A program made the translations under genes and the position numbers. From Gemmatimonadota bacterium (GTDB lineage: Bacteria; Gemmatimonadota; Gemmatimonadetes; Gemmatimonadales; GWC2-71-9), in the NCBI GenBank assembly GCA_039592335.1, contig JBDHBX010000006.1, positions 51,479 to 115,478 of the forward strand: DNA of 64,000 nucleotides. The letters run 5' to 3'. The notes beneath the pieces are model-generated. The model saw only the letters and a program-made list of their open reading frames with translations. It did not search any database and was not told the DNA's origin. How positions within the stretch are numbered: position 1 is the first letter of the stretch; each line of letters begins with the position of its first letter. Positions 27,658 through 42,214 of the stretch are shown one piece after another.

Positions 27658-29244
27658 ATGCCTGAGCCGACCGGGAATGGTCCGCGGCCCCGCCTCGCTG
27701 CCATCGACGTCGGAACGAACTCCATCCGCTTCGTGGTGGCTGAGGTGGAGCCGGACGGCAACTACCGCGTCCTCGACGAAGAACGGGACATGACGCGGCT
27801 GGGGCGCGGTCTGTACGAGACGGGCCGCATTGGCCGCGGGCCGACGGAGCGGTCGCTCGAGGCGCTCGCCAAGATGCGGGCGATCGCCGATGGGTTCGGC
27901 GTGCAGGAGCTGCGGGTGGTGGCCACCAGTGCCGTGCGCGAGGCCGCCAATGGCCGAGAGTTCCGGCGCGAGGCCGCGCGCCGCTGCAAAGTGAACATCG
28001 ACGTAATCTCCCCCGACGAGGAAGCGCAGCTCGCCTTCAAGAGCGTGATGCGCCACTTCGCGTTGGAGGAGCGATCCTTCGCCGTGGTGGATATCGGGGG
28101 CGGCAGCGTGGAGGTGATTCTGGCCGCCGGCGGCATGGTGAACCAGGTGCATTCGCTCCCGCTGGGAGCGGTGCGCCTCACCGAGTGCTACGTGAAGAGC
28201 GATCCGCTCAAGCCAAAACACTGGAGCAAGCTGCGGCGCGCAATCGACAAGTCTATCAAGGCCGAGATCGGGCGGCCCCCATTCGCCACCGAGGTGATGG
28301 TCGGGAGTGGCGGCACCTTCACTAACCTGGGCGAGATGGTGCAGTGCGAGCGGGACGGTCGGGCCAGCCAGGTGCGCAACTACGCCATCACGCGGGCCGA
28401 CTTGAAGCGGCTGCTCGACCGCCTGCGCGAGACGCCGCTGGGATCCCGGAGGAAGCTGTGTGGCCTCAACCCCAAGCGGGCCGACATCATCGTGGCCGGC
28501 GCGGCGTCCATCGCCCGCCTGGCGAAGCATTTGGGCACGCAGCAGATCCTCATCAACGATCGGGGGATTCGCGACGGACTCGTGGTCTCGATGGTCGAGG
28601 ATCTGGGGACCGCCGGGGCGGCCTCGGCGGCGCCAGTGCAGGATCGCATGGCGTGGGTGCGGGAGTTCGCCCGCAAGTGCCGCTCCAACGATCGCCACTG
28701 CAATCACGTGAGCCACCTCGCACTGCAGATCTTCGACGAGGTGCAGCAGCCGTTCGAGTTGCCCTCGGCGGGCCGCGACATCCTGCAGGCTGCCGCGCTG
28801 TTGCACGACGTGGGCTACCTGATCAATCACGCCGGGCACCACAAGCACGCCTACCATCTCATCATGCACGGCGACCTGCGCGGCTTCTCGCCGGGAGAAG
28901 TAGAGCTCATCGCCAACGTGGCGCGCTACCACCGGCGGGCGTTCCCCAAGAGGAAGCACGCCGACTACCGACGCCTCGAGCGGTCCGACCAGATCCTGGT
29001 GGAACAGCTCAGCGCGATCCTGCGGGTGGCGGATGGCCTCGATCGCACCCACGGCCAGGCGGTGACCGGTGTGCGCTGCGAGGTGAAGGACGACCGCGTC
29101 CTGATGTCCCTCCAGGCGCCGCGCAATCCCGGTGTGGACCTTGCCGACGCACAGCGCAAGGGCACGCTGTTGGAGAAGGCGTTTGACGTGCGGTTGAGTT
29201 TGGAGTGGTCACGGAGTCGAGCCCGCGCGGCACGGAGCTCCTAG
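27658..29244 (+). CDS. ppx: Ppx/GppA exopolyphosphatase with HD domain
   Basis: AAIDVGTNS, ATSAVREA, EEA, DIGGGS, GIRDG, LLHDVG, ARYHR. Confidence 0.95.
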   Translation: MPEPTGNGPRPRLAAIDVGTNSIRFVVAEVEPDGNYRVLDEERDMTRLGRGLYETGRIGRGPTERSLEALAKMRAIADGFGVQELRVVATSAVREAANGREFRREAARRCKVNIDVISPDEEAQLAFKSVMRHFALEERSFAVVDIGGGSVEVILAAGGMVNQVHSLPLGAVRLTECYVKSDPLKPKHWSKLRRAIDKSIKAEIGRPPFATEVMVGSGGTFTNLGEMVQCERDGRASQVRNYAITRADLKRLLDRLRETPLGSRRKLCGLNPKRADIIVAGAASIARLAKHLGTQQILINDRGIRDGLVVSMVEDLGTAGAASAAPVQDRMAWVREFARKCRSNDRHCNHVSHLALQIFDEVQQPFELPSAGRDILQAAALLHDVGYLINHAGHHKHAYHLIMHGDLRGFSPGEVELIANVARYHRRAFPKRKHADYRRLERSDQILVEQLSAILRVADGLDRTHGQAVTGVRCEVKDDRVLMSLQAPRNPGVDLADAQRKGTLLEKAFDVRLSLEWSRSRARAARSS

Positions 29245-31407
29245 ATGGCGAAGCGTCCGAAGCCTCAGCATTCGTCCGGGCACTACATCAACCGGGAAAC
29301 GAGTTGGCTCGAGTTCAACGGTCGGGTGCTGGAGGAGGCAGGCGACCGCTCCAATCCTCTGCTCGAACGGCTCAAGTTCCTGGCGATCTTCGGCTCGAAC
29401 CTGGACGAGTTCTTCGAGATTCGCATGGCGGGCCTGCAGCAGCAGGTGGATGCCGGCGTGGAGCCACAGGACTATGGCGCGGACGGCCTCGGGCCCCGGG
29501 AGCAGCTCGCGGCTGCCGAGGCTCGGGTCCGCGACTTCGTGAGTGAGCAGTACCGTCTGTTCAACGAGGACGTCATCCCGGCCCTGGCCGACGTTGGCAT
29601 GGCGAGGGTGTGCTACGACGACCTCACGGCCGCCGAGCGGTTGGCGACGGAGTCGCTGTTCCAGGGGAGCGTGTATCCCGTGCTGACGCCCCTGGCGGTG
29701 GATCCGGGGCACCCCTTCCCGCACGTCCATCACAAGAGCCTCAACATCATTCTCCGCGTGGAGTCGGAGCGCGACGACCAGCGGCACGTGGCGGTGGTGC
29801 AGGTGCCGTCGGTGCTCGACCGCGCGGTGATCGTCACCCGCGACGACAGGCGACTGCGGTACGTGCTGCTGGAGGACATCATCCTGCGCCATCTGGGTGA
29901 CCTGTTCGGCGGCTTCCGGGTGCTGGATCACGTCATCTTCCGCGTCACGCGCAACGCCGACCTGAGGATTCAGGAGGAGCAGGCGGAGGACCTGCTCGAG
30001 ACCATCGAGGAAAGCCTGCGTCAGCGGGTCCGCTCCGACCCAGTGCGTCTCGAGGTGGAAGCCGATGCCGACGAGTCGCTGGTCGAGGTGTTGACCGGCG
30101 CGCACGAGCTCGAGGCGTGCGACGTGTACCGCGTGAACGGCCCTCTCGATCTCTCGGGGATGATGCGCCTCAGCCGGGTGAGCGGATTCGACCAGCACAA
30201 GGATGAGCCGCTGGTGCCGCGGGTCGCACCAGCCTTCGCCAACGCCGACGACCTGTTCGAGGTCATCCGCGAGCAGGACGTGCTGGTGCACCACCCCTAC
30301 GAGTCGTTCGGCTCCGTCGTGGAGTTCATCGAGCAGGCAGCGGACGACCCCGACGTGCTCGCGATCAAGCAGACGCTGTACCGCACCAGCGTGCCCAGCG
30401 CCATCATCTCCGCGCTCGGGCGGGCGGCACAGAACGGCAAGCAGGTGACCGCGCTGGTGGAGCTCAAGGCCCGCGCCGACGAGCAGAACAACATCCTGTG
30501 GGCCCGCCAGCTCGAGGAAGCGGGAGTGCACGTGGTCTACGGCGTGGTGGGACTGAAGACGCACTGCAAGGCTGCCCTCGTGGTGCGACGCGAGCAGGAG
30601 GGAATCCGCCGCTACCTGCACTTGGCGACCGGCAACTACAACCAGGTCACAGCGCGGGTGTACACCGACCTCGGGCTATTCACGGCGAACGAGGAACTGG
30701 GCGACGACGCCACCGCGCTATTCAACCTGCTCACGGGCTACTCGCGTGGGCACGACTGGCAGGGCCTGCTGGTCGCGCCGGATGAGCTGCGGGAGCAGAT
30801 CGTCGGGTTGATCGAGCGCGAGCGGCGCCACGCGGCGGAAGGCCTCCCGGCACGGATCATCGTGAAGATGAACGCGCTGGTGGAGCACTCGGTGATCGAC
30901 GCGCTGTATGAGGCGTCCCAGGCGGGGGTGAAGATAGATCTCATCATCCGGGGTATCTGCTGTCTGCGCCCGGGGATGCCAGGTGTCTCCGAGAACATCC
31001 GGGTCATCAGCATCGTGGACAAGTTCCTGGAGCACTCCCGCGTGTTCTACTTCGAGAACGCGGGCTCGTCCGATCTGTTTCTCGGCAGTGCCGACTGGAT
31101 GCCGCGCAACTTCTTCCGCCGTATCGAGGTCATGTTCCCGGTGCTCGATCCCGGGCTCAAGGCGCGCATCGTGAACGAGGTGCTGGAAACCGGGTTGGCC
31201 GACAACGTCAAAGCCCGGATCCTGTGCTCCGACGGGAGCTACCGGCGCCGCCCGGGGGCCGAGGACGAGCCCGAGGTGCGGTCCCAGGTGACTCTCCAGG
31301 GGCTCGCCCGGGAGGCCGCGCTGGTGAGCGGAGAGTTCCGGCTCCCGATCCCGTCCACCACGCGGCGCCGGCCATCCGGCCCCGATCGCGCCGCGACCCC
31401 AGCCTAA
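29245..31407 (+). CDS. ppk1: Polyphosphate kinase 1
   Basis: NRETSWLEFN, NLDEFF, HHPYESF, KQTLYR, KTHCK, TGNYN, FLEHSR, GSADWMPRN. Confidence 0.97.
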   Translation: MAKRPKPQHSSGHYINRETSWLEFNGRVLEEAGDRSNPLLERLKFLAIFGSNLDEFFEIRMAGLQQQVDAGVEPQDYGADGLGPREQLAAAEARVRDFVSEQYRLFNEDVIPALADVGMARVCYDDLTAAERLATESLFQGSVYPVLTPLAVDPGHPFPHVHHKSLNIILRVESERDDQRHVAVVQVPSVLDRAVIVTRDDRRLRYVLLEDIILRHLGDLFGGFRVLDHVIFRVTRNADLRIQEEQAEDLLETIEESLRQRVRSDPVRLEVEADADESLVEVLTGAHELEACDVYRVNGPLDLSGMMRLSRVSGFDQHKDEPLVPRVAPAFANADDLFEVIREQDVLVHHPYESFGSVVEFIEQAADDPDVLAIKQTLYRTSVPSAIISALGRAAQNGKQVTALVELKARADEQNNILWARQLEEAGVHVVYGVVGLKTHCKAALVVRREQEGIRRYLHLATGNYNQVTARVYTDLGLFTANEELGDDATALFNLLTGYSRGHDWQGLLVAPDELREQIVGLIERERRHAAEGLPARIIVKMNALVEHSVIDALYEASQAGVKIDLIIRGICCLRPGMPGVSENIRVISIVDKFLEHSRVFYFENAGSSDLFLGSADWMPRNFFRRIEVMFPVLDPGLKARIVNEVLETGLADNVKARILCSDGSYRRRPGAEDEPEVRSQVTLQGLAREAALVSGEFRLPIPSTTRRRPSGPDRAATPA

Positions 31408-31422
31408 TCTGCAGGAGGAGCC

Positions 31423-31938
31423 ATGCGACTCCTCATCGTGCGGCATGCCATCGCCGAGGACCGCGTCGCCTTTGCGGCGACGGGCAAGGACGACGATGAG
31501 CGTCCCCTCACCGAAGAAGGCCGCCGCCGCATGGAACAGGGAGCGCGCGGCCTCAAGCAGCTCGTTCCCGTGCTCGATCTCGTGGCGACCAGTCCGCTGG
31601 TGCGCGCCGCACAGACAGCCGAGATCCTGGCCGCCGCGTATGATGGCGTGGCAGTCGAGCAGGTCCCGGCGCTGGCCGCGGGCGGGGATTCGGGGCCCGT
31701 GATCCAGTGGCTGCGCGGCCGGCGCGCGGGCGACTCGGTTGCCATCGTGGGCCACGAACCCGACTGCTCCGCTCTCGTGTCGCACCTGCTGACCGGTGCC
31801 GACGATTCCTTCGTGCAGCTCAAGAAGGGATCGGTGTGCCTGTTGGAGTTTGCCGACCGACCGGCGGCGGGCGAGGGCCTGTTGCGATGGGCGCTCGCGC
31901 CGAAGCAGCTCCGCCTCCTCGGGGGCGGCACTGTCTGA
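31423..31938 (+). CDS. sixA: Phosphohistidine phosphatase SixA family
   Basis: RHAIA, RPLT, SPLVRAAQTA, VGHEP; AGGAGGAG RBS. Confidence 0.93.
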   Translation: MRLLIVRHAIAEDRVAFAATGKDDDERPLTEEGRRRMEQGARGLKQLVPVLDLVATSPLVRAAQTAEILAAAYDGVAVEQVPALAAGGDSGPVIQWLRGRRAGDSVAIVGHEPDCSALVSHLLTGADDSFVQLKKGSVCLLEFADRPAAGEGLLRWALAPKQLRLLGGGTV

Positions 31939-33385
31939 GTACCCCCGCGGCCTGCTCGGTCGCCCGGTCGCTGCGGCCATGGACGGCATTGGTGGCGTGC
32001 TGCTGGATGCCGCCGGCGCCGCCCAGGGGCGGCTGGCCGATCCAGTGGACGAGGAGGCGCTGCATGACTTCCGAGTGGCGCTGCGCCGACTGCGCAGTAT
32101 CGAGCGGGCCTTCCGCAGTCAGCTCGACGACCTGATGGCGAAGAAGCTGCGGCGGCGCGTGCGCGACCTAGCGCGAGCGACCAACGGTGCCCGCGATGCG
32201 GAGGTGCAGCTCGCCTGGGTGCGGGGGCAGCGCAAGGGCCTGGACCGGGAGCAGCGGGTCGGATTCACCTGGTTCTTGAAGCGGCTGGAAGAGCGGCGCG
32301 ATCGGGAGTACGAAGCCAGCTTCCGCGCCATCGACGCGGAGTTCCCCGGTGTCGACCGCTGCGTGCGCAAGTGGCTTCGCAGTGGCCGGGGGACCGACGC
32401 TCCGGAGGGCGCCACCTTCGCGACGGCGCTGGGCGAGCTGATCGAGGAGCACCTCGAGGCGCTGGAAGGCAAGCTGGACGCGATCCATGCCCCGGAGGAC
32501 GAGACAGCCGTGCATCAGGCCCGCATCGCGGCCAAGCGATTGCGTTACCTGTCGGAGCTGATCGCGGCGGAGATCGGCGCCGCCGAAGAGGCGGTCACCC
32601 GGCTCAAGGGACTGCAGGATGTGCTGGGCGAGCTGCACGATCGGCAGGTGCTGGATCATGAGCTCACCGTTGCTCTCGAGGCTGCGGCCGCTGATCATGT
32701 GCGCCGGCTGCGCGAGCTCGAGCTGCAACAGGCGAGTAAGAAGAAGGTGGAGGCCGCCGAGCGACGCAACGCCGCCCCCGGCGTGCTGACACTCGCCCGC
32801 GCGGGGAGGGAGGTCCAGCGCGAGCTCTACCGGACGTTCGCGGCCGAGTGGCGCAACGGCGGGCTCACCGGCCTCCGCACCGTGCTCGACGCCGTCCTGG
32901 ACGTGCTCCGGGCCTACCGGGCCGGCGTGCCCGTGGAGGTGGAGCGGAAGTACCTGTTGTCTGGTCTGCCGAAGAAGGTGCGCGACGCCCCGTCGGTGAC
33001 CGTCGAGCAAGGGTGGTTGCCCGGGGAGCGGCTGCAGGAGCGGCTGCGCCACGTCTCGGGCGACGACGGCGACCGGTACTTTCGCACGGTGAAGCTGGGC
33101 CGGGGTCTCACGCGCATCGAGCTGGAGGAGGAGGCCTCAGCGGAGTTGTTCGAAAGACTCTGGGCGCTCACCGAGGGGCGCCGGCTGCGCAAGCGGCGCT
33201 ACTACCTGCCGGACGGCGATCTCAGGTGGGAGGTGGACGAGTTCCTCGACCGGGAGTTGGTGCTGGCCGAGGTGGAGCTGGCCGATCCGGCGCTGACCGT
33301 GGCCCCGCCGGCATGGCTCGCGTCCCTGGTCGTGCGGGAAGTGACCGGAGAGCCGGAGTACCTGAACGTCAACCTGGGGCGATGA
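31931..33385 (+). CDS. CHAD domain and CYTH (TTM) domain fusion protein
   Basis: CHAD motifs LHDFRVALRRLR, RDAEV, HQARIAAKRLRY, QDVLGELHD; CYTH motifs EVERKY, QGW, KRRY, EVDEF, LAEVE, EVTGEPEY. Start is CTG 31931 or ATG 31979. Confidence 0.9.
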   Translation: MSEYPRGLLGRPVAAAMDGIGGVLLDAAGAAQGRLADPVDEEALHDFRVALRRLRSIERAFRSQLDDLMAKKLRRRVRDLARATNGARDAEVQLAWVRGQRKGLDREQRVGFTWFLKRLEERRDREYEASFRAIDAEFPGVDRCVRKWLRSGRGTDAPEGATFATALGELIEEHLEALEGKLDAIHAPEDETAVHQARIAAKRLRYLSELIAAEIGAAEEAVTRLKGLQDVLGELHDRQVLDHELTVALEAAAADHVRRLRELELQQASKKKVEAAERRNAAPGVLTLARAGREVQRELYRTFAAEWRNGGLTGLRTVLDAVLDVLRAYRAGVPVEVERKYLLSGLPKKVRDAPSVTVEQGWLPGERLQERLRHVSGDDGDRYFRTVKLGRGLTRIELEEEASAELFERLWALTEGRRLRKRRYYLPDGDLRWEVDEFLDRELVLAEVELADPALTVAPPAWLASLVVREVTGEPEYLNVNLGR

Positions 33386-33386
33386 G

Positions 33387-36215
33387 CTAGCCCGCTACCA
33401 ACCGCGCCAGGAACTCCTCCTGCGCGCTCAGCGCCTCAACCCCCCCCGCCGTGCGCTGCACGTACGTCCCGTCCTGCTGCATCTCCCACGCCTTGGGATC
33501 GGTCACCTCGATCTCCAGGATCTCGTCCAGCCGCGTTTGGATTGCGGGCTCCAGCACCGGCGTCACCACCTCGACCCGCCGGCGCAGATTCCGCCCCCGC
33601 CAGTCCGCGGAGCCGATGTAGAACTCGGGCGAGCCTGCGTTCGCGAACACGTAGATCCGGCCGTGCTCCAGGAACCGGCCCACCGCGCTCACCACCCGGA
33701 TGTTGTCCGACAGGCCGGGCACCCCCGGCCGCACGCAGCAGATTCCGCGGACCACGAGATCGATCTTCACGCCGGCCTTGGAGGCGTTGTACAAGGCCTC
33801 GATCACCTCGCTGTCGGACAGGCCGTTCAGCTTGGCCCGGATGTAACCCTGACCGCCCGCCGCCGCATGCTCCGTCTCGCGTGTGATCAACTCGTGGAAC
33901 CCGGTCAGCATGTAGGTGGGGGCCACGATCAGCTTGCGGAAGTCGGCCGCGGGCGGTCGGGAGGAGCCGGTGAGCTCGTTGAACAGGACGCCCGCATCGG
34001 TGCAGAGGTCCTCGTTGGCCGTGAGCAGATCGAAGTCGGTGTACTGCCGCGCCGTGGACGCGTTGTAGTTGCCCGTCCCGATGTGCACGTAGCGCTTCAG
34101 GGCATCGCCCTTGCGGCGCACCACGAGGGCGAACTTCGCGTGCGTCTTGTGCTTGACGAGCCCGGTGACCGTGTGGATGCCGCTGCGCTCGAGTTGCTTC
34201 GCCCAGAAGATGTTCAGCTCCTCATCGAAGCGCGCCTTGACCTCCACGAAGACGGAAATGTCCATCCCGGCCGCGGCGGCCTTCTTGAGCGCGTCGCTGA
34301 GCCGCGACGGTCCGCCCGGCCGGTACAGCGTGAGCTTGATGGAAACGACGTCGGGATCCTCGGCCGCCTCGCAGAGGAAGCGCTCGACCGTCTCCTCGTA
34401 CGACTCGTAGGGGCGGTGCACCAGTACGTCGCGCTCGTCCAGCACGTCGAACACCGACCGATCGGGCTCCATCGGCACGGTGGGTGTGAACACCGGGTAC
34501 TCGTGCTCGGGGAGCGGCAGCTCGGCCAGCTCGCTCACGGCTCCCAGATCGATGAGGCCGTCCAGCTCGTAGATATCCGAGGGGTCGAGCGGCACTCCCT
34601 GGCCCGACTCCTCCCGCCGCAGGTGGCTGAGGAGCAGGTCGCGCACCGGGAAGGGCATCGAGCGCTCCACCTCGATGCGCACGACCGCCCCCTGCGGCCG
34701 GCGCTTCACCTCGTCCTCGATGACCTCGAGGAAGGTCTCGGCCGTGGCGGTGCCGAACGTGACTTCGGCGCTGCGCGTGAGCCGGAAGGGAGCGACCTCG
34801 AGCACCTCCCGGTTCGGGTAGAGGGTGTCGATGTGTGCCCGAATGAGCTCCTCGATGGTTACGAAATCGTTCGTCTCCGGGAGCTGTACGAAGCGGGGTA
34901 GGGCATCGGCTACATCGAGCACCACGAAGTGGTCGCGCCCGGTGCGCTGGTCGCGCACGACCACCGCGAGGGAAAGGAGAAACTCCTCCACGTAGGGCAG
35001 CGGATGTCCCGGCGTGGTCGTGATGGCCTTCGGCGTGAGCAGCGGGAAGACCCGCTCGTCGAAGTAGCTCTTGAGATACTCCTGGGCCTCTTGGTCGAGT
35101 TGGTCGTACTCCAGAATCCGGACGCCGCTGGGCTCGAGCCCCCGCGCGCGCAGCTCGTCGAAGCAGCGGTACTGCCGCCGTACGAGGGCGTGCATCCGTG
35201 TGGTGATGGCGTTGAGCAGCTCCTTTGGGGTACGCCCGTCGATCGTCTTCTTGGTAACGCCTTCGGCAACCGCCTGCTTGAGGCCGCCCACCTTGATCAT
35301 GAAGAACTCGTCGATGTTGCGACCAAAGATCGACAGGAAGCGCAGACGCGCGAGGAGCGGTACGGCCGGATCCTCCGCCAGCGCCAGCACCCGGCCCTGG
35401 AACTCCAGTAGGCTGAGCTCGGGATTGATCGTCGCCGCCACCGGCTGCTCGACCTCTTCGGTCTCGGGGATGCCGAGCAGCGCCTTGGCGTCGAGGAACA
35501 CGGAGCCGCGCTTGCGCCTCGGGAGTGCCGGCGCCTCCCCGGTCGCGGTGCCCTTCTTGAGCTTGGGGGCCGGGGCCGCCACCGCCTCCTGGGCGTAGAT
35601 GTCGCCCACATTGAAGCGCCACATGTAGAGGGAAACGATGTTAAACAAGAGGGATACCACGAAGGCGACCGCGAGCGCCTGAATCCCCGCCGCGAGCCCC
35701 ACCGAGATCGCCAGGAAGATGTACACCGCGTCCTTGGTGTCCTGCAGCGTGTGGCGAAACCGCACGGCGGCGACGATCCCCGCGAGGCTGAACGCCAGGG
35801 CGATGGAGTCCTGCACGATGATCACGATGCCCGTCACCGCGATCGGGAGCATGATGATCGTGTGCACCATCGACTGGTCGTAGCGTACCTCGCGCTTGGT
35901 CGTGATGTAGACCTTGGCAATGGGGATCGCGAGCAGCAGTGCGCCGAGGATGGCGATGAAGGTGCGGAGCGCCGGGTAGGGCCGCGCCAGAAAGCCGCCA
36001 GCCTCCTCCGTCCCGAGCTGTGCCTCGGGCTGCAGCTCGGGCGGGATGTCTGTCGCCCCTGGCACATTGTACCCTAGCAGTTCGCGGGCGCGCTCCATCG
36101 AGAACGCGCTCTGCAGCAGCGGCAGCAGCTTGACGAGAAGAACGAGGGCCACGGCCAGCAGGAAGTAGTACCCCACGGTCCGGACGATGGGAGACTGGAA
36201 GAACCGGCGGATCAT
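33387..36215 (-). CDS. DUF4956-type membrane domain fused to a second polyphosphate kinase 1
   Basis: N-terminal multi-TM region with SIALAFSLAGIVAAVRFR...DAVYIF; C-terminal Ppk1 motifs NIDEFF, HRPY, KARFDE, KTHAK, HIGTGNYN, FLEHGR, GSADW, all in one 942-aa frame. Confidence 0.88.
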   Translation of the reverse strand: MIRRFFQSPIVRTVGYYFLLAVALVLLVKLLPLLQSAFSMERARELLGYNVPGATDIPPELQPEAQLGTEEAGGFLARPYPALRTFIAILGALLLAIPIAKVYITTKREVRYDQSMVHTIIMLPIAVTGIVIIVQDSIALAFSLAGIVAAVRFRHTLQDTKDAVYIFLAISVGLAAGIQALAVAFVVSLLFNIVSLYMWRFNVGDIYAQEAVAAPAPKLKKGTATGEAPALPRRKRGSVFLDAKALLGIPETEEVEQPVAATINPELSLLEFQGRVLALAEDPAVPLLARLRFLSIFGRNIDEFFMIKVGGLKQAVAEGVTKKTIDGRTPKELLNAITTRMHALVRRQYRCFDELRARGLEPSGVRILEYDQLDQEAQEYLKSYFDERVFPLLTPKAITTTPGHPLPYVEEFLLSLAVVVRDQRTGRDHFVVLDVADALPRFVQLPETNDFVTIEELIRAHIDTLYPNREVLEVAPFRLTRSAEVTFGTATAETFLEVIEDEVKRRPQGAVVRIEVERSMPFPVRDLLLSHLRREESGQGVPLDPSDIYELDGLIDLGAVSELAELPLPEHEYPVFTPTVPMEPDRSVFDVLDERDVLVHRPYESYEETVERFLCEAAEDPDVVSIKLTLYRPGGPSRLSDALKKAAAAGMDISVFVEVKARFDEELNIFWAKQLERSGIHTVTGLVKHKTHAKFALVVRRKGDALKRYVHIGTGNYNASTARQYTDFDLLTANEDLCTDAGVLFNELTGSSRPPAADFRKLIVAPTYMLTGFHELITRETEHAAAGGQGYIRAKLNGLSDSEVIEALYNASKAGVKIDLVVRGICCVRPGVPGLSDNIRVVSAVGRFLEHGRIYVFANAGSPEFYIGSADWRGRNLRRRVEVVTPVLEPAIQTRLDEILEIEVTDPKAWEMQQDGTYVQRTAGGVEALSAQEEFLARLVAG

Positions 36216-36325: not shown

Positions 36326-36349
36326 AGAGGGGAGCCGAAGCTCCCCTCT
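36326..36349 (-). terminator. Terminator hairpin after the DUF4384 gene
   Basis: Minus strand AGAGGGGAGC-TTCG-GCTCCCCTCT, perfect 10-bp stem with a C(UUCG)G loop. Confidence 0.65.
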
Positions 36350-36356
36350 GGTGTGG

Positions 36357-38204
36357 CTACGGGCGCCGGGGCCGGGGCCGGGTCCGCGGCGCCGAGGGCC
36401 GCGATGGTGCGGCGCGCGGCCGCGGCGGGCTCGACCGCACCTGCGGGCGCGGGCTCGACGGCCTGCTCGACGGGCGCGCCTGCGGCTGCGACGGGCGCCG
36501 CGTCGGCTGCGAGCGGATCTGCGTCGGGCTGGGTCGCGGCGTGGACGGGGTCGGTGACACCCGCCGTTCCAGCGTCGGTCGTCCCGGCGTAGCCCTACTG
36601 GGGGCCGCTCCGGCTCGTGGTGCCGAGCGCTGCGGACTCGTGATCTGTCGCAGCGTGCTGCGCAGTGAGTTCTTGCTCTCCGTCGGCGGCTGCGCGGTGG
36701 GACGCCGCGGGCTCACGTTCCGTTGCTGCAGTGTCTGGCGCGTCCCGGTCCTTCCGCCGGCTCCCGACGCGGCCGCCGAGCCCGAGCCCGTTTGCCGGCG
36801 CTGCGACACCGACCGTCCGCTGGCACCCTCGGTGCCGGACCGCGGCTGCGCGGTGCGCGTGGCGCGCTCTCCCTCTGGGGTGCGCGGCTGCAGGTTGGGC
36901 GGCTGTTGCACGCGTCGGCCTGTGTTCTGCGTGGCGTCCGAGTCCGGCGACCGATCCTGCATGCGCACCGTGCGCCGTCCGTCGGTCATGCCCCAGCCTT
37001 CGGGCTGCACCTGCCGGTCGGTCGTATTGGACGTGGGCGCGCTGCGCCGCTCGATGCTCGGTCGCCCCGTGGTGCTGGCCCGGCCGGTGCCGGCGGCTCC
37101 CGATGTCGGGGCGACACGCCGGCCCGCCGTCTGGGCGCTTGTTCCCGTCACGCGCCGGGCACCGCTCTGCACCGTGGCCGGTGCGGTGCGCCGCGAAGCC
37201 GTTCCCACATACCGGCTGTAGGATGCGAACTGGCCGCTCGTGGTGGCGCGGCGGCTGCGCTGCCATGTGGTGATGCCGCCGTTCGCCAACCCCGCCCGGT
37301 TGCTCCCCTTGAACGTGTAGCGCGGCAGTACGTAGGCACCCACACCGTAGTTGTAGTACGAGTTACCGTAGTAGCCGCCGCCGTAGTACGGATAGCCCCC
37401 GGCGTGATAGTACGGGCCGCGATAGTAGCAGCACCCGTAGTACGGGTAGTAGCCGTAGTGGTGCGGCCAGTAGTACGGACGGTACCAGGAGTACGGGTAG
37501 TAGCCGTACCCGTAGTAGGGGTAACCCCAGCCCCAGCCGATCCCGATGCTTCCCCATCCCCACCCGATGCCGAAGCCGAAGTACGGCCCGCCGTACCAGC
37601 CGCCGTACCCGTAGTAGGGATAGCCGTAGCCGTAGCCGAAACCGGCACCCACATACACCGTCCCGCCTCCGCCTGAGCTCGCCGTCTGCTCTGCGACGGC
37701 GTAGTGCGTCAGGTCGTAGTCAAAGCGCGAGACATCACCGGCCATTTGGTGGACCAGTGCGGTGAGCTCCGCTTCGGCGTCGAGCCCCTCGTTGAGCCGC
37801 CAGGTCTCGAACAGGCGATAGTCCCAGTGGTCGTTCCGCACGAACTCGCCGAACTGGAACGGATCGCGCGAGAAGGCGGCATAGACGGTGCCGACACCGC
37901 TGGCCGTGTAGATCTGGAACGCCTCCCGGTCGCCGCGTCCCCGCACCTCGAAGTCCTGGGCGCCGCGTACGTAGTTGTCGTGGAAGGGGTCCAGCGGGAA
38001 GAGGACCCGGATCCTGCCGTCCGCCTCAGCGTGCAGGATCAGGAGGTACCCGTCCGTCTCGACGCGCGTGTAGACCTTGACCCGCGTCCCGCGCTTGATG
38101 TCGCCCCCCTTGTTGAGCCAGACTTTGACGGGCGGCTCCTGCGTGCTCGGGATCGCTTCGGTCGGCGCGAGCGTCAGTGTGGTGAGCAGTAGCGCAGTGA
38201 GCAT
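36357..38204 (-). CDS. Secreted DUF4384-domain protein with a Tyr/Gly-rich segment and an Arg/Pro/Ser/Thr-rich tail
   Basis: Signal peptide; DGYLLILHAEADGRIRVLFP (DUF4384-like); GGAGG RBS. Confidence 0.8.
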   Translation of the reverse strand: MLTALLLTTLTLAPTEAIPSTQEPPVKVWLNKGGDIKRGTRVKVYTRVETDGYLLILHAEADGRIRVLFPLDPFHDNYVRGAQDFEVRGRGDREAFQIYTASGVGTVYAAFSRDPFQFGEFVRNDHWDYRLFETWRLNEGLDAEAELTALVHQMAGDVSRFDYDLTHYAVAEQTASSGGGGTVYVGAGFGYGYGYPYYGYGGWYGGPYFGFGIGWGWGSIGIGWGWGYPYYGYGYYPYSWYRPYYWPHHYGYYPYYGCCYYRGPYYHAGGYPYYGGGYYGNSYYNYGVGAYVLPRYTFKGSNRAGLANGGITTWQRSRRATTSGQFASYSRYVGTASRRTAPATVQSGARRVTGTSAQTAGRRVAPTSGAAGTGRASTTGRPSIERRSAPTSNTTDRQVQPEGWGMTDGRRTVRMQDRSPDSDATQNTGRRVQQPPNLQPRTPEGERATRTAQPRSGTEGASGRSVSQRRQTGSGSAAASGAGGRTGTRQTLQQRNVSPRRPTAQPPTESKNSLRSTLRQITSPQRSAPRAGAAPSRATPGRPTLERRVSPTPSTPRPSPTQIRSQPTRRPSQPQARPSSRPSSPRPQVRSSPPRPRAAPSRPSAPRTRPRPRRP

Positions 38205-38403: not shown

Positions 38404-39525
38404 TCACACCCAGCCCTCCTTGCGGAACGAGCGCAGCACCTCGGCGAAGGCCTCCATCTCCATCGGGGTGCCGATCGAGAGCCGGCAGTGGTCCAGCATC
38501 GGGGGGAACGGCCGTCCCACCCAGATGCCCAGCTCCCGCATGCGCTGGCGGTAGGCCTGGAGCTCCCCGTTTATGCGGTGCATCACGAAGTTGGTGTGGC
38601 TCGGCATGTAGGCCAGCCCCAGCTCCTCGAGGCAGTCGTACAGGATCGCCTTGCCCCGCTCGTTCACGTCGAGACTCTGCCGCACGAAGTCGGGATCCTG
38701 CAGGCTGGCCAGGCCGGCGACGGTGGCGAAGTGGTTCGCGTTGTTCCGCACCCGAAACCGCCGCACGTGCTGCGCGGTCTCGGGGTGAGCGATCGCGTAG
38801 CCGAGCCGGATGCCTGCCATCCCATACACCTTGGAGAAGGTGCGGGCCACGATCACGTTGGGGCGGTCGGGTACCCACTTGAGGGCCGACCAGTAGCGGG
38901 TATCGCGCGCGTAGTCGTAGTACGCCTCGTCCACCAGGAAGTACATGTTCTCGGGCGCCGATTCGATCCAGGCGTCGATCGTCGCGCTCGGCGTGAGCGT
39001 GCCCGTCGGGTTGTTCGGGTTGCACAGGTAGACGAGGACGGGCCCCGTCGCGGCGTTGGCCGCATCCCGCATGCGCTCCACGTCGTGCGCGCCGTCGGGC
39101 AGCAGCGGCACCTTCGCCAGCCGAATGTCGAAGGGCCCGGCATACCACGGCGCGTCCTCGTAGGTCGGCTCGGCGAGCACCAGGGTGCCCCCTGGGGCCG
39201 CCAGGGCCTGCACCGCCATCTTGAGTACCTCGGTGGAGCCGGCGCCCACGACGAAGGTATCGCCCGGCATCCCGTGCTTCGTGGCGAGCGCCCGGATCAG
39301 CTCGCCGCGCCCCCGTGGGTAGCGGTTCGCGTCCACCATCCCCTCGATGATCGCCTGCCGCGCCATGGGTGAGATGCCCAGGGGGTTCTCGTTGGAGCTC
39401 AGGCGGATGGGCTTCTCGGGATCGAAGCGAGGCGTCGCATCGAGGAAACGCGGCGCCAGAGTAGTGCTCCCCGCGCCCATCAGGCCGGCCGCGATGCTCG
39501 TACGGAAGAAGGTGCGTCGCTGCAT
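38404..39525 (-). CDS. HisC-like class I/II PLP aminotransferase with a twin-arginine signal peptide
   Basis: MQRRTFFRT Tat motif; LSSNENP, CNPNNPTG, DEAY, RTFSKVYGMAGIRLGY. Confidence 0.9.
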   Translation of the reverse strand: MQRRTFFRTSIAAGLMGAGSTTLAPRFLDATPRFDPEKPIRLSSNENPLGISPMARQAIIEGMVDANRYPRGRGELIRALATKHGMPGDTFVVGAGSTEVLKMAVQALAAPGGTLVLAEPTYEDAPWYAGPFDIRLAKVPLLPDGAHDVERMRDAANAATGPVLVYLCNPNNPTGTLTPSATIDAWIESAPENMYFLVDEAYYDYARDTRYWSALKWVPDRPNVIVARTFSKVYGMAGIRLGYAIAHPETAQHVRRFRVRNNANHFATVAGLASLQDPDFVRQSLDVNERGKAILYDCLEELGLAYMPSHTNFVMHRINGELQAYRQRMRELGIWVGRPFPPMLDHCRLSIGTPMEMEAFAEVLRSFRKEGWV

Positions 39526-39554
39526 GAGACCCCTCGCGAGAGTGGAATGGGTAA

Positions 39555-40106
39555 CTAGGCTGAGCTGTCCTCCAACTTCACCCGGATGCTGCACGTCGGA
39601 TCGCCGCGCTCCATGCAGCTGCTCTCGGTCACGTTGACACGCTGGCCGTAGTGCTGGGCCACGCCGTGCACCAGTCCCTTGGCGAAGCCGCACATGCGGC
39701 GTGGGGAGCTGTAGGAGATGAGCACCTCGTTCGCGCTCTCGCGGCTGCACCCGAGCGTGGGCGGTTTGGCTTCCGGGTTCTTACGGCGGATCAGCTCGTG
39801 GATCATGTCCTCGGTGTTCTCGAGCAGATCGAGCGTGTTCCATTCCGGCTTGATCATCGGTCCGTACACCTGCACCAGGTCCGCCACGATGAAGCTGCCG
39901 AAGTCCTCCTGCATCTCTGCGGCCTGCTGCTTCCCCCGCTCAGCCGCCGCCGTGAGCAGGGCCACCGCCTCTTCATCGGAGTACTCGTTGACGTTCAGGA
40001 ACACCTGCCGTTCGACACCGGCCGCATGCAGCAGCTCGGGCCAGGTGCCCTCACCGAATCGGTCTTCGGCGTACTTCCTCAGCTCGGCGAAGATGAGTCC
40101 GTACAT
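39555..40106 (-). CDS. H-NOX heme NO-binding protein
   Basis: MYGLIF N-terminus, Y-S-D, proximal His in MIHELIR, YSSPR (YxSxR), CM..G...C. Confidence 0.92.
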   Translation of the reverse strand: MYGLIFAELRKYAEDRFGEGTWPELLHAAGVERQVFLNVNEYSDEEAVALLTAAAERGKQQAAEMQEDFGSFIVADLVQVYGPMIKPEWNTLDLLENTEDMIHELIRRKNPEAKPPTLGCSRESANEVLISYSSPRRMCGFAKGLVHGVAQHYGQRVNVTESSCMERGDPTCSIRVKLEDSSA

Positions 40107-40178
40107 GGGGATCCCCCGTCAGGCATCAGGGCAAAGATGCGTCCCGGTCCGGCGGGGCGCGAGGCGGCTGGTTAGGAC

Positions 40179-40844
40179 CTAGGGTCCCCACTCCTCGCCG
40201 TTCCAGCACATCTCCCAGAACTGCCACTCGTAGCGGCTCGAGATCACGAAGAGCTCGGTGAGGCGAGCGTGCTTCTCGTCGCCGGCGCCCGCCGCGACCC
40301 GGTCGAGCTCTGCCCTGAGCCACTCAGCGGCTTGCGCGAACTCGTCGGAGGCGTACTGCTGGATCCAGTCGGCGTAGCGTTCGTCCTCGGGCGCCTTGCC
40401 CTTTGCCAGGTACTGCCCGATGTACACGTAACCCCACGCACAGGGGAGGAGCGCAGCCAAGAGATCCGCCATGTCGCCGTCGGCCGACGTGCGTACCAGG
40501 AAATCGGTGTAGGCACGCGTGGTCGGCCACATCGGCGTGGCCTCGAGCTCTTCACCCGAGATGCCGAAGCGCTCAGCGTAGGAGCGGTGCAGCGCCATTT
40601 CGGTGTTGAGCGTGAGGTTGAGGACCGTGGCGTACCAGCTCATGGAGTCGAGCCGGTCTGCCTTTGCCACCGCCCACGCGAAGATCCTCGCGAACTCCTT
40701 GAGGTACAGATAGTCCTGCAGCACCCACCGCCTGAATCGCTCCTCTTCGAGGGAGCCGTCGCCCAGGCCCTTGACGAACGGGTGCTCCAGCTGGGCGTCC
40801 CAGGTGGGTTTGGCGGCGGTGTACAGCTCTTGAGTTAGGGTCAT
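40179..40844 (-). CDS. tenA: Thiaminase II (TenA, catalytic-Cys type)
   Basis: HPFVKGLGDGSL, QDYLYL, LLPCAWGY, YEWQFWEM. Confidence 0.93.
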   Translation of the reverse strand: MTLTQELYTAAKPTWDAQLEHPFVKGLGDGSLEEERFRRWVLQDYLYLKEFARIFAWAVAKADRLDSMSWYATVLNLTLNTEMALHRSYAERFGISGEELEATPMWPTTRAYTDFLVRTSADGDMADLLAALLPCAWGYVYIGQYLAKGKAPEDERYADWIQQYASDEFAQAAEWLRAELDRVAAGAGDEKHARLTELFVISSRYEWQFWEMCWNGEEWGP

Positions 40845-40878
40845 GGGCGTCTCTTCACGGTGTACTCGAGTTCCCTGT

Positions 40879-41529
40879 CTACGTCCCCGGCCACCCCTCT
40901 CCGGTCGCCGCCATCTCCCAGAAGGCGATCTCGTACTTGGTGGTGAGCTCGAAGTACTCGGCCATGCGCTCCCGCTCAGCGGAGCCCACCTGCGCGGCGA
41001 GCTTGTTTACCTCTCCCTCGAGGTAGGCGACGTACCCGCCGAACGCGTCTCCCGCCCAGTTCTCCACGAAGGGGTACCACTTCGAGTCCTGTGCGATACC
41101 GGCTTGCACCACCTTCCACGAGTCGTGGTACGCCTTTTCTGCCACGTACAGCACCGTGTAGGCCTCGGCATAGGAGGCACAGTACGCCGTCGCCAGCAGG
41201 AACTGGATGTAGGCGTGATTCGTGAACGACGGGGGGGCGCCGCGCAGGTCCACGCCCGCCGCCGCGGCGCGCTCCTCGAACAGCTTTAGCTCCCTCTCCA
41301 GCGCCGTGATCACCCCGGCCAGGGGTTCCCAGTGGTCGCGGGGGGAACGGGGGATGAGTGCCGAGATGAACGGGATGGCCGCCTCGACGAACAGGTAATC
41401 CTGGCGCATCCAGATGGCGAAGCGATCGTCGGCGATGGTGCCGTCTCTGGTCTCGGTGAGGAACCGATGACGCAGCATCGTATCCCACAGCGGCTTCACG
41501 CGGGAGAGCTGTTCCTGACTGAACGTCAC
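40879..41529 (-). CDS. TenA family protein lacking the catalytic Cys (TenA_E-like)
   Basis: HRFL..TRDGT, QDYLFV, LYVAEKAY in place of the LPC motif, YEIAFWEM; GGAGG before GTG 41529. Confidence 0.85.
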   Translation of the reverse strand: MTFSQEQLSRVKPLWDTMLRHRFLTETRDGTIADDRFAIWMRQDYLFVEAAIPFISALIPRSPRDHWEPLAGVITALERELKLFEERAAAAGVDLRGAPPSFTNHAYIQFLLATAYCASYAEAYTVLYVAEKAYHDSWKVVQAGIAQDSKWYPFVENWAGDAFGGYVAYLEGEVNKLAAQVGSAERERMAEYFELTTKYEIAFWEMAATGEGWPGT

Positions 41530-41746
41530 GGGCGGGGCCTCCGGGTAGGGGTGGCAGCACGATGAGCGGCGAAGGCATCGTCCGTGAAAGGGAAGCGCAA
41601 TCGGCTGGGTGTCGCAAGTGTGAGGGGGCGGCGTCCCGCACCTACGGGCCAGCTCGCCCAGCATGGGGCGAGACGTTGACATCGGGGGGCCCGGGTCGGA
41701 CATTCTCGCGGCACCATAACCCTGGAACTCTTCCTTGGAGGGCACG

Positions 41747-42214
41747 ATGCGGCGAGCAGGAATGGCTCTTTCTCTTACGACCGTGCTGACACTCGTGGCC
41801 ACGGCATGCCAGCCCATGGTGGATTACGCTGCGGAAGAGCAGGCGATACGCGACCTGGATGCCGAATGGGTAGCGGCCGTGGCCGCCGGGGACGCGGCGA
41901 AGTGTGCCTCGTTCTACGCGCCGGACGGCTACCTCCTGCCTCCCGGCATGGATCCCGTGACGGGCGCCGAAGCCCTCGAGCAGGTGTGGGCCGGCGTGAT
42001 CGAGGCGATGCCCTACCTCACGTTCGAGCCGACCATGATCGTGGTCGCCGCCGCCGGGGACATGGCGTGGGATTACGGGACCTATGAGGTCAGGGCCGAG
42101 CCCGATGGAGCCACCGTCGATCACGGGAAGTACCTGGTCGTGTGGCAGAAGCTCGACGGTGAGTGGAAGGTCATGGCCGATATGTTTAACACGAGCGTGG
42201 CTGCGGCCATGTAG
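41747..42214 (+). CDS. DUF4440/SnoaL-like (NTF2 fold) lipoprotein
   Basis: Lipobox ATAC; GDMAWDYGTY, GKYLVVWQKLDGEWKV. Confidence 0.88.
   Translation: MRRAGMALSLTTVLTLVATACQPMVDYAAEEQAIRDLDAEWVAAVAAGDAAKCASFYAPDGYLLPPGMDPVTGAEALEQVWAGVIEAMPYLTFEPTMIVVAAAGDMAWDYGTYEVRAEPDGATVDHGKYLVVWQKLDGEWKVMADMFNTSVAAAM

What the first reader, a model, noticed from the sequence alone, without database searches (positions are those of the whole stretch)
33387..36215. Membrane DUF4956 domain fused to Ppk1: candidate bacterial polyP synthase-translocase
Seen: one 942-aa frame with an N-terminal TM helix, a multi-TM DUF4956-like domain (about 35610-35980, AFSLAGIVAAVRFR), a Lys/Arg/Pro linker and a full Ppk1 keeping the phospho-His (KTHAK), HIGTGNYN and FLEH motifs. 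Established: DUF4956 genes typically neighbour bacterial VTC-domain polyP polymerase genes, and the yeast VTC complex couples polyP synthesis to membrane translocation. Inference: Ppk1 replaces the VTC polymerase here and the fusion indicates that DUF4956 is a polyP channel or anchor delivering polyP to the periplasm, surface or a compartment. I know of no characterised example.
Basis: partly seen in the sequence, partly recalled or inferred. Interest (0 to 1): 0.85.

Follow-up and report, generated by a model that had tools for sequence, protein, structure and literature searches.

The report
Membrane-anchored second polyphosphate kinase in Gemmatimonadota
This is a real, conserved gene in which a six-helix membrane module of unknown function (DUF4956, possibly MgtC-like) is fused to a complete polyphosphate kinase, which ties that module to polyphosphate synthesis but does not show that it is a polyphosphate channel.

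Summary
ORF 33387-36215(-) encodes 942 aa: six predicted TM helices matching Pfam DUF4956 just above its cut-off, a ~60-aa low-confidence linker, and a full Ppk1 with both catalytic histidines.

It is not an assembly artefact. 49 of 56 database hits carry DUF4956 plus all four Ppk1 domains, and 11 of the 80 best genome loci have the same direct fusion.

All 78 loci whose title names a taxon are Gemmatimonadota. On a quick tree, all 48 direct fusions form one clade nested among unfused forms. In those, a DUF4956 gene with an ACT-like tail lies next to a ~1,050-aa CYTH-like-X-Ppk1 gene.

A shorter DUF4956 subfamily in the same phylum sits beside VTC polymerase genes in 8 of 11 cases. DUF4956 is therefore linked to two unrelated polyP polymerases.

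The channel idea is untested. No solved fold matched, and the linker looks flexible. In 38 of 69 unfused loci, exported phosphoesterase-like lipoproteins or an Omp85-family gene follow DUF4956, which keeps an envelope role open.

Best reading: a membrane-tethered, probably regulated, second Ppk1. It is a new variant of a known kind.

The parts
33387..36215 (-). Whole gene: DUF4956-Ppk1 fusion, 942 aa
   Evidence: ORF list and translation; Pfam and NCBIfam; 49 of 56 database hits carry DUF4956 plus all four Ppk1 domains
36126..36191 (-). TM helix 1 (residues 9-30), preceded by a basic N-terminus (MIRRFFQS)
   Evidence: AF2 helix 9-30 with pLDDT blocks 94-96; charges
35976..36125 (-). Acidic, variable, low-confidence loop (residues 31-80; 3 K+R, 7 D+E), inferred to be periplasmic
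   Evidence: pLDDT 51-59 over about 50-80; charge count. Topology is inferred from the positive-inside rule and from Ppk1's need for cytoplasmic ATP
35616..35975 (-). TM helices 2-6 (residues 81-200), the DUF4956 core; Pfam match 97-194 = 35634-35927
   Evidence: conserved core in 146-row alignment A1 and 41-row alignment A2
35730..35762 (-). Most conserved motif, R152-F153-R154...D159-T160-K161-D162, at the inferred cytoplasmic end of TM4 and start of TM5
   Evidence: R154 invariant and R152, F153, D162 at 90% or more in A1; all invariant in 41 of 41 fusions
35430..35615 (-). Linker (residues 201-262), variable in length and sequence, low pLDDT
   Evidence: pLDDT blocks 49-56 over 221-260; alignment excerpt
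35502..35519 (-). Conserved linker motif RRKRGS (233-238)
   Evidence: R234, G237, S238 in 41 of 41; function unknown
35115..35429 (-). Ppk1 N domain (263-367)
   Evidence: PF13089, E 1.1e-30
34530..35087 (-). Ppk1 middle (head) domain (377-562)
   Evidence: PF02503, E 1e-41
33957..34457 (-). Ppk1 C1 domain (587-753), with phospho-His H692 (34140-34142) and H711 (34083-34085)
   Evidence: PF17941, E 4.1e-62; alignment to E. coli PPK 1xdo; H692 in 39 of 41 and H711 in 41 of 41
33420..33932 (-). Ppk1 C2 domain (762-932), with H851 of FLEH (33663-33665)
   Evidence: PF13090, E 4.6e-63; H851 in 41 of 41
27658..33385 (+). Convergent polyP locus: ppx (27658-29244), canonical ppk1 (29245-31407, 720 aa), His_Phos_1 (31423-31938), CHAD protein (ORF 31796-33385; true start probably near 31931)
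   Evidence: Pfam. CHAD and His_Phos lie convergent downstream of the fusion in 9 of 11 direct-fusion loci; the other two contigs are too short to tell

Best explanation
The gene encodes a second Ppk1, catalytically intact by sequence, that is held at the inner membrane by an N-terminal six-helix DUF4956 module. The inferred topology is N-terminus and C-terminus both in the cytoplasm.

Shown: the architecture; its conservation; its restriction, among the loci found, to Gemmatimonadota; and its origin. On a quick tree, one clade of direct fusions is nested among forms in which a DUF4956 protein with an ACT-like tail is encoded next to, or fused with, a CYTH-like-X-Ppk1 protein. The direct fusion lost the ACT-like tail and the CYTH-like-X part.

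Inferred: the Ppk1 part makes polyP from ATP on the cytoplasmic face through the usual phospho-histidine. A flexible ~60-residue tether lets it work beside the membrane module. The module localises and probably regulates the enzyme, coupling polyP synthesis to phosphate or cation handling at the envelope. The product stays in the cytoplasm, where the CHAD, Ppx and canonical Ppk1 proteins encoded next door would act on it. The biochemical activity of DUF4956 itself remains unknown. The invariant R-F-R...D-T-K-D cluster at its cytoplasmic face is the best candidate for a functional site.
For: Intact enzyme: all four domains are present and the Ppk1 equivalog model scores above its cut-off. H692, H711 and H851 are present and aligned to E. 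coli PPK.

Real and selected: 49 of 56 hits carry DUF4956 plus all four Ppk1 domains. 11 of 80 genome loci are direct fusions. The membrane core is invariant in 41 of 41.

Origin: in the quick IQ-TREE of 70 Ppk1 parts rooted on 6 canonical paralogues, 48 of 48 direct fusions form one clade (SH-aLRT 100). That clade is nested among 9 separate long Ppk1s and 7 long fusions.

Linkage: a fusion-type Ppk1 lies in the locus of 52 of the 80 DUF4956 loci: 11 direct, 5 immediately downstream, 32 downstream on the same strand, 3 on the opposite strand and 1 cut by a contig end.

Tether rather than rigid coupling: the linker has low pLDDT and variable length. Relatives insert about 400 residues or a gene boundary at the same place.

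Regulatory flavour: the tail of unfused relatives folds as beta-alpha-beta-beta-alpha-beta. It matches ACT domains, including the MgtC C-terminal domain 2lqj (VIA Z 8.7, rmsd 2.8 over 88 residues; Foldseek E 2.9e-3), though tied with many other ACT and ferredoxin-like chains. The MgtC Pfam model gives sub-threshold hits on three VTC-adjacent DUF4956 genes. One Atlas cluster carries DUF4956 on 94% of members and MgtC on 21%. Passages of mBio 2025 (PMC12345266) describe the DUF4956-position gene of the CotH/polyP-polymerase set as an MgtC membrane domain plus ACT. Passages of PNAS 2021 (PMC7980370) describe MgtC as limiting Pi uptake.

Cytoplasmic context: ppx, ppk1, a His phosphatase and a CHAD protein are encoded convergently next door.
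Against: The MgtC relationship is weak for this subfamily. P0001 has no MgtC Pfam hit at E <= 0.1, and hhalign of the membrane core against 16 MgtC domains gave probability 0.85%. The ACT-like match is tied with many unrelated ferredoxin-like folds, and that tail is absent from the window's protein.

A simple anchor would not need six helices or an invariant charged motif, so the module probably does more than tether.

In 38 of 69 non-direct loci, the DUF4956 gene is followed within 5 kb on the same strand by genes for exported-looking YjiK-like or Metallophos lipoproteins or an Omp85-family protein. That points to an envelope-spanning function and fits transport as well as it fits regulation.

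Retention of a canonical Ppk1 in the same loci implies that the fused paralogue makes a distinct pool or answers a distinct signal. A cytoplasmic product does not by itself explain this.

Two of 41 fusions (P0026, P0029) have Asn in place of the phospho-His, so catalysis is not kept in every member.
Confidence: 0.5

Rival explanations
1. Synthase-translocase. DUF4956 oligomerises into an anion-conducting pore, and Ppk1 feeds nascent polyP through it to the periplasm or cell surface, analogous to the yeast VTC complex.
For: Two DUF4956 subfamilies are genetically tied to two unrelated polyP polymerases. One is the soluble VTC-domain protein, adjacent in 8 of 11 genomes, and VTC-DUF4956-CotH sets lie in Pel loci. 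The other is Ppk1, in the same locus in 52 of 80. In yeast, VTC's own membrane helices form the polyP channel, with a ring of basic residues near the cytoplasmic mouth (passages of PMC9911596). DUF4956 has invariant R152, R154 and K161 at the inferred cytoplasmic mouth. Unfused relatives are followed by exported-looking phosphoesterase-like lipoproteins or an Omp85-family gene in 38 of 69 loci. In 9 of 11 direct-fusion loci the upstream gene encodes a signal-peptide-like DUF4384 protein with a very basic tail that could bind a polyanion.
Against: There is no fold or sequence likeness to the VTC membrane part or to any solved channel: Foldseek found nothing at E <= 1e-3, and the best VIA Z of 8.3 is within the noise range the tool gives for helical bundles. 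No conserved basic residues lie deeper in the membrane or on the outer side. The tether is long and flexible, and in relatives a gene boundary or about 400 residues separates module and enzyme. The neighbouring CHAD, Ppx and canonical Ppk1 genes are cytoplasmic polyP players (the granule role of CHAD is recalled). No experiment bears on any of this.
Confidence: 0.2
2. DUF4956 is a small-solute conduit or sensor (Pi, Mg2+ or another counter-ion), and the fused Ppk1 is its output. PolyP synthesis is switched on where and when phosphate or cations cross the membrane, buffering them as cytoplasmic polyP.
For: The unfused relatives carry an ACT-like tail, a domain type that typically binds ligands. 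MgtC-type proteins are linked to Pi uptake and Mg2+ homeostasis. The operons combine the module with exported-looking phosphoesterase-like lipoproteins that could release Pi outside the cell. Ser/Thr kinase or response-regulator genes occur in some loci. The invariant linker motif RRKRGS looks like a phosphorylation or docking site; that reading is inference.
Against: No transporter fold was matched. Ppk1 uses ATP, not Pi, so there is no direct substrate channelling. The ACT-like tail is missing from the window's protein. Homology to MgtC is not established for this subfamily.
Confidence: 0.15
3. The fusion is an assembly or gene-calling artefact, or a decaying gene.
For: The window comes from a draft genome of 65 contigs. 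The public contigs laid on the junction are short and none spans the whole 1,401-nt stretch.
Against: The same architecture occurs in 11 independent genome loci and 49 protein clusters. There are no internal stops. Membrane and catalytic residues are invariant across sequences 57-95% identical to the window's protein. Two contigs 100% identical to the window, from a different study (X4), cover 35324-35481 and 35488-35667, i.e. TM6 through the linker into the Ppk1 N domain.
Confidence: 0.02

Closest known systems
Bacterial Ppk1 (E. coli PPK; PDB 1xdo/1xdp, 2o8r)
   Same: The four-domain enzyme, the phospho-His and the second catalytic His are all present. It aligns over residues 263-907 at E 1e-101 to 8e-106.
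   Different: The solved Ppk1 chains (683-705 aa) and the canonical 720-aa paralogue 2 kb away align from the N domain onward, with no membrane part in the alignment. This protein carries about 260 extra N-terminal residues with six predicted TM helices. It is 42-44% identical to the canonical paralogues of the same loci.
Yeast VTC complex (Vtc4/Vtc3/Vtc1), a polyP synthase-translocase
   Same: A polyP polymerase is physically joined to a multi-helix membrane part. There are basic residues near the cytoplasmic mouth (passages of PMC9911596).
   Different: The catalytic fold is unrelated (a TTM/VTC tunnel against the PLD-like Ppk1). The membrane part of VTC is 5 x 3 helices. No likeness was detected. 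Translocation is shown for VTC and untested here.
Bacterial VTC-domain polymerase + DUF4956 (+CotH) gene sets
   Same: The same DUF4956 family lies next to a polyP polymerase gene. The DUF4956 partner is described as an MgtC-like membrane domain plus ACT, the same architecture as the unfused relatives here.
   Different: That subfamily is short (open frames of about 230-280 aa) and matches the window's module only at E 1e-9 to 1e-19. Its partner is VTC, not Ppk1. No fusion of the two is reported in the passages I read. The function of that set is also unknown.
MgtC (Salmonella, M. tuberculosis, P. aeruginosa)
   Same: Relatives of the window's protein share the architecture of a multi-helix membrane domain plus a C-terminal ACT-like domain. 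Both have a link to phosphate homeostasis.
   Different: There is no significant sequence or profile match for this subfamily. The genome has a separate bona fide MgtC gene. MgtC is described as acting on other proteins' activity (ATP synthase, Pi uptake), not as carrying an enzyme.

Membership tests
Ppk1 (TIGR03705 / Pfam PP_kinase_N, PP_kinase, PP_kinase_C_1, PP_kinase_C) | All four structural domains in order | tested here: met
   106.6, 143.1, 209.1 and 212.2 bits, each full-length in its profile
Ppk1 (TIGR03705 / Pfam PP_kinase_N, PP_kinase, PP_kinase_C_1, PP_kinase_C) | Score above the curated equivalog cut-off | tested here: met
   702.3 bits against 465.85
Ppk1 (TIGR03705 / Pfam PP_kinase_N, PP_kinase, PP_kinase_C_1, PP_kinase_C) | Autophosphorylated His and second catalytic His (E. 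coli H435 and H454; numbering recalled) | tested here: met
   H692 and H711 align with chain positions 434 and 453 of 1xdo_A. They are kept in 39 of 41 and 41 of 41 fusions
Ppk1 (TIGR03705 / Pfam PP_kinase_N, PP_kinase, PP_kinase_C_1, PP_kinase_C) | ATP-dependent polyP synthesis | not testable with these tools
   Needs an enzyme assay
DUF4956 (PF16316) | Score above Pfam's gathering cut-off | tested here: met
   34.7 against 30.6 bits, covering only profile positions 5-103 of 169; 38.9 bits in the six-frame search
DUF4956 (PF16316) | Direct sequence link to classical, VTC-adjacent DUF4956 genes | tested here: met
   The 260-aa N-terminal query hits the short genes of G122, G045, G096, G110, G144 and G135 at E 4e-19 to 2e-16, and those of G020, G011 and G005 at 7e-13 to 7e-9. 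These are the VTC-adjacent or VTC-near genes
MgtC (PF02308) | Match to the MgtC membrane-domain model | tested here: not met
   No hit at E <= 0.1 in P0001; hhalign probability 0.85%. Only the short VTC-linked subfamily gets sub-threshold hits
MgtC (PF02308) | C-terminal ACT-like domain | tested here: not met
   Present in unfused relatives but replaced by Ppk1 in the window's protein
VTC-type polyP synthase-translocase | TTM/VTC catalytic domain | tested here: not met
   No PF09359 or CYTH hit in P0001 and no VTC match in the genome at 92.7% completeness. Relatives carry a CYTH-like domain: 32.0 and 30.5 bits in 2 of 4 long Ppk1s, and 22.7 and 18.8 bits, below the 23.2 cut-off, in two others
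VTC-type polyP synthase-translocase | Membrane part with the VTC channel fold | tested here: inconclusive
   Fold searches of the AF2 model gave no clear match of any kind. A missing match does not exclude it
VTC-type polyP synthase-translocase | Coupled translocation of the polymer | not testable with these tools
   Needs proteoliposome or fractionation experiments

The most novel reading that the evidence does not exclude
DUF4956 is the inner-membrane conduit of a bacterial envelope polyP system, and it can be driven by either of two unrelated polymerases (VTC-type or Ppk1). In this reading the window's protein is a single-chain Ppk1 synthase-translocase that exports polyP. Outside the cytoplasm, lipoprotein phosphoesterases, an Omp85-family protein (in relatives) and a basic-tailed DUF4384 protein (here) would handle the polymer. 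It would be a bacterial functional analogue of the eukaryotic VTC complex, built from different parts.
Probability: 0.2. Interest if true: 0.9.

Novelty: new variant of a known kind. Interest (0 to 1): 0.6.

Why it matters
Ppk1 is the main bacterial polyP synthase. In the solved structures and in this genome's canonical paralogue it has no membrane part. DUF4956 is a widespread membrane family with no assigned function.

A natural fusion, together with conserved operons behind it and the independent pairing of a sister DUF4956 subfamily with VTC-type polymerases, says that DUF4956 works with polyP synthesis whichever enzyme makes the polymer. That turns an unknown family into a testable one, because a single polypeptide can be expressed, truncated and assayed.

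Two outcomes are possible. If the module conducts polyP, it would be the first bacterial polyP exporter. If it regulates, it links MgtC-like membrane proteins to polyP. Either result bears on phosphorus storage in Gemmatimonadota. I recall, but did not read here, that the phylum's first isolate came from a phosphorus-removal reactor.

Tried and rejected
Complex prediction: Ppk1 part 228-942 with the membrane part 1-215, using 41-row alignments. The verdict was 'no answer' (ipSAE 0.00 and 0.00; controls not run). It counts neither for nor against binding.

Fold searches of the membrane model: Foldseek found no match at E <= 1e-3. The best VIA row had Z 8.3 (an archaeal virus coat protein, 102 residues, rmsd 4.2), within the range the tool calls common for helical bundles. 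Neither VTC nor any transporter stood out. This does not show that the fold is new.

hhalign of the membrane core against 16 MgtC domains from this phylum: probability 0.85%, E 0.065. The 41 aligned columns look similar by eye, but the score gives no support.

hhalign of the CYTH-like-X region (16 rows) against 14 CHAD proteins: probability 0.07%. X is therefore not shown to be CHAD, and its nature is unknown.

Sequencing runs: only short Logan contigs were available and none spans the whole 1,401-nt stretch. One run recorded as RNA (X19) holds a 174-nt identical contig at 35463-35636. That does not show transcription, because DNA can be present in such libraries. Habitat labels of runs with small shares were not used.

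Literature: 'DUF4956' was found in 5 papers, 4 of them listed. I read passages of two of these, and neither concerns Ppk1. The searches listed nothing relevant. Searches were used as listings only, apart from PMC9911596, of which I read passages. Figures and supplementary figures of the two Pel papers (S4, S5, S7) are not held. They may show DUF4956 architectures that I could not see.

I did not search for CYTH-Ppk1 proteins outside this phylum, and I did not test oligomerisation of the membrane module.


Full report
THE OBSERVATION. The frame 33387-36215 on the minus strand is open for 942 codons from an ATG preceded by GGAG. Pfam finds DUF4956 at residues 97-194, with 34.7 bits against a cut-off of 30.6 and covering only the first 103 of 169 profile positions. 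It also finds the four Ppk1 domains between 263 and 932. The NCBIfam Ppk1 equivalog model scores 702 bits against a cut-off of 466.

An AlphaFold2 model of residues 1-260, built on 146 homologues, has mean pLDDT 79.7 and six long helices at 9-30, 81-106, 114-133, 138-156, 160-177 and 181-200. The 47-80 loop and the 215-260 linker have low confidence.

The charge pattern fits an N-in, C-in topology: a basic N-terminus, an acidic 31-80 loop, and basic short loops after helices 2 and 4. Ppk1 also needs ATP. The topology is therefore an inference, not a measurement.

H692, H711 and H851 sit in KTHAK, HIGTGN and FLEH. H692 and H711 align with positions 434 and 453 of the E. coli PPK chain 1xdo_A, which are H435 and H454 in the literature numbering that I recall.

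IS THE FUSION REAL? A search with residues 1-260, restricted to proteins of 518-1649 aa, returned 56 hits. 51 carry DUF4956 together with at least one Ppk1 domain and 49 carry all four. Seven of these are 1255-1319 aa long.

A scan of one genome per species found at least 549 stretches encoding a relative. All 78 of the best 80 loci whose title names a taxon are Gemmatimonadota (Gemmatimonadales, Longimicrobiales); the other two are titled 'uncultured bacterium'. Eleven of the 80 are direct fusions like the window's.

In an even sample of 151 genomes of the phylum, 65 have the module. Seven show a frame of 900 aa or more, and six of those are direct fusions, all in the window's own family.

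Across 41 full-length fusions that are 57-95% identical to the window's protein, the membrane core and the catalytic residues are invariant. Short public contigs from another study match the TM6-linker-Ppk1 junction at 100%. An artefact is excluded.

WHERE IT CAME FROM. An exhaustive profile-free search with the N-terminal 260 residues found 3,564 cluster representatives at E <= 1e-3. Of the best 150, only 2 exceed 900 aa and the rest are 149-542 aa, many near 350.

These unfused proteins have the same six helices followed by about 130 residues without a Pfam match. That tail, modelled from 48 sequences (pLDDT 77.3), is a beta-alpha-beta-beta-alpha-beta domain. Its best structural matches are ACT and ferredoxin-like domains. 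The C-terminal domains of MgtC are among them (2lqj, Z 8.7; 7qa5, Z 8.2), but tied with many others.

In their loci the next polyP gene is a Ppk1 of about 1030-1150 aa. It is closer to the fused Ppk1 (44-61% identity) than to the canonical one (41-46%). It carries a roughly 390-residue N-terminal extension. Pfam calls part of that extension CYTH in 2 of 4 proteins tested above the cut-off, and in one more below it. The 1317-aa fusion P0046 has DUF4956, a CYTH-like stretch (22.7 bits, just under the cut-off) and Ppk1.

A quick maximum-likelihood tree was built of the Ppk1 parts of 70 proteins, rooted on six canonical paralogues. All 48 direct fusions fall in one clade (SH-aLRT 100), nested within a grade of 9 separate long Ppk1s and 7 long fusions. 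Three caveats apply: the search was short, the model was LG+G4, and the root is a paralogue. The simplest history is an operon pair, then a long fusion in some lines, then one direct fusion that lost the ACT-like tail and the CYTH-like-X part.

Of the 80 loci, 52 have the fusion-type Ppk1 or its CYTH-like part in the locus. These are 11 direct fusions, 5 immediately downstream, 32 downstream on the same strand at 0.5-6.8 kb, 3 on the opposite strand and 1 cut by a contig end. Nine loci have too little flank. Nineteen have none within 6 kb downstream, and three of those have a canonical Ppk1 beside them.

THE WIDER DUF4956 LINK. The same phylum has a second, short DUF4956 type (open frames of about 230-280 aa) that the window's module hits at E 1e-9 to 1e-19. 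VTC-domain genes occur in 11 of the 151 genomes. In 8 of them the VTC match lies within about 130 nt of that short DUF4956 match, in 2 within about 3 kb, and in 1 elsewhere. It agrees with passages of bioRxiv 10.1101/768473 on CotH, polyP-polymerase and DUF4956 genes beside Pel loci.

The window's genome (92.7% complete) has no VTC match. It has one DUF4956 (the fusion), two Ppk1s and one two-domain PPK2. DUF4956 is thus tied to two polymerases of unrelated fold.

WHAT THE MODULE MIGHT BE. No solved structure resembles the membrane model.

Several weak leads point to MgtC. The MgtC Pfam model gives sub-threshold hits (E 8e-7 to 5e-4) on three VTC-adjacent DUF4956 genes. One Atlas cluster carries both family labels. 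Passages of mBio 2025 (PMC12345266) describe the corresponding Streptococcus gene as an MgtC membrane domain plus ACT. MgtC is reported to limit Pi uptake and to act on the ATP synthase (passages of PMC7980370).

For the window's subfamily, however, neither Pfam nor hhalign supports MgtC membership, so I do not file it there.

The most conserved feature is the R152-F153-R154...D159-T160-K161-D162 cluster, at what should be the cytoplasmic end of helix 4 and the start of helix 5. Yeast VTC also has its basic ring near the cytoplasmic mouth of the channel (passages of PMC9911596). The motif therefore cannot decide between a binding site and a pore entrance.

ENVELOPE NEIGHBOURS. In 38 of the 69 loci that are not direct fusions, the DUF4956 gene is followed within 5 kb on the same strand by at least one of three gene types. 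These are a YjiK/SdiA-regulated (phytase-like) propeller in 18 loci, a calcineurin-like phosphoesterase in 14, and an Omp85-family protein in 23. A Ser/Thr kinase with TPR repeats follows in 7.

The examples I read have lipoprotein-type or signal-peptide-type N-termini. The lipobox rule used for that reading is recalled.

P0055 is a DUF4956 protein continued by an extra hydrophobic segment and the propeller, which fits a C-in module.

None of these genes is in the 11 direct-fusion loci. Instead, 9 of those 11 have an upstream DUF4384 gene. In the window its product has a signal-like N-terminus, a Gly/Tyr/Trp-rich stretch and a long Arg/Pro/Ser/Thr tail. These neighbours keep an envelope-spanning role open.

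JUDGEMENT. Four things are shown: a real, conserved, single-origin fusion; an enzyme intact by sequence; a strong genetic tie between DUF4956 and polyP polymerases; and a derivation from an operon.

What is not shown is any activity of the module. I rate a membrane-tethered, probably regulated, Ppk1 with a cytoplasmic product as most likely (0.5). The reasons are the long and variable linker, the fact that relatives tolerate a gene boundary or 400 residues at the same place, the regulatory-type ACT-like tail in the ancestral form, and the cytoplasmic polyP genes next door. I give the synthase-translocase reading 0.2, a solute conduit or sensor 0.15, and an artefact 0.02.

My searches found no paper on a membrane-fused Ppk1 or on a DUF4956-Ppk1 link. 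Public records that carry a name call these proteins simply 'polyphosphate kinase 1'. I rate it a new variant of a known kind, with interest 0.6.

Noticed in passing
window 36357-38204 (-): The gene upstream of the fusion on the same strand encodes a 615-aa DUF4384 protein. It has a signal-peptide-like N-terminus, a Gly/Tyr/Trp-rich middle and a roughly 300-residue Arg/Pro/Ser/Thr-rich, very basic tail. A homologue sits upstream in 9 of 11 direct-fusion loci and in 4 loci where CYTH-like-X-Ppk1 follows DUF4956 at once or closely (L053, L056, L060, L097). A polycationic tail could bind polyP, but that is speculation.
   Followed up: partly
window 36326-36349 (-): A perfect 10-bp stem with a TTCG loop lies a few bases after the DUF4384 stop codon, about 110 nt before the fusion's start. 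It looks like a terminator hairpin without a clear T-run. I read it from the sequence only.
   Followed up: no
window 31423-31938 (+): A 171-aa histidine-phosphatase (His_Phos_1) gene sits between canonical ppk1 and the CHAD gene. It keeps that place in many related loci. In L051, L052, L061, L062 and L064 the order is canonical ppk1, His phosphatase, then an unfused DUF4956 gene on one strand. Ppk1 works through a phospho-histidine, so this could be a regulator of it; that was not tested.
   Followed up: partly
proteins P0026 and P0029 (relatives): Two sister fusion proteins have Asn in place of the phospho-histidine (KTNAK) while keeping H711, H851 and the membrane core. In that small branch the Ppk1 part is probably not an autophosphorylating kinase.
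   Followed up: partly
window 35502-35519 (-): The linker motif RRKRGS (consensus [RK]-[RK]-x-G-S) has R234, G237 and S238 invariant in 41 of 41 fusions, within an otherwise variable linker. The long relatives have a differently worded conserved stretch (S-R-[LV]-T-L-S-E-L-R) at the same place before the Ppk1 N domain.
   Followed up: partly
L100 8822-9736; L103 8915-12860; L109 9048-11501; L021 6448-7758: Between the unfused DUF4956 gene and the long ppk1, relatives carry lipoprotein-like YjiK/phytase-like propellers, calcineurin-like phosphoesterases, an Omp85-family protein or a Ser/Thr kinase with TPR repeats. This may be a recurrent envelope gene set.
   Followed up: partly
window 33385-33389: The CHAD ORF (+) ends at 33385 and the fusion ORF (-) ends at 33387. 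The convergent genes are therefore only 1 nt apart, with no room for terminators between them.
   Followed up: no
window 38404-41817 (-): Further along the same strand as the fusion there are four genes: an aminotransferase, an H-NOX (HNOB) protein with a V4R domain, and two TENA/THI-4 family proteins. They are unrelated to polyP as far as I can see.
   Followed up: no
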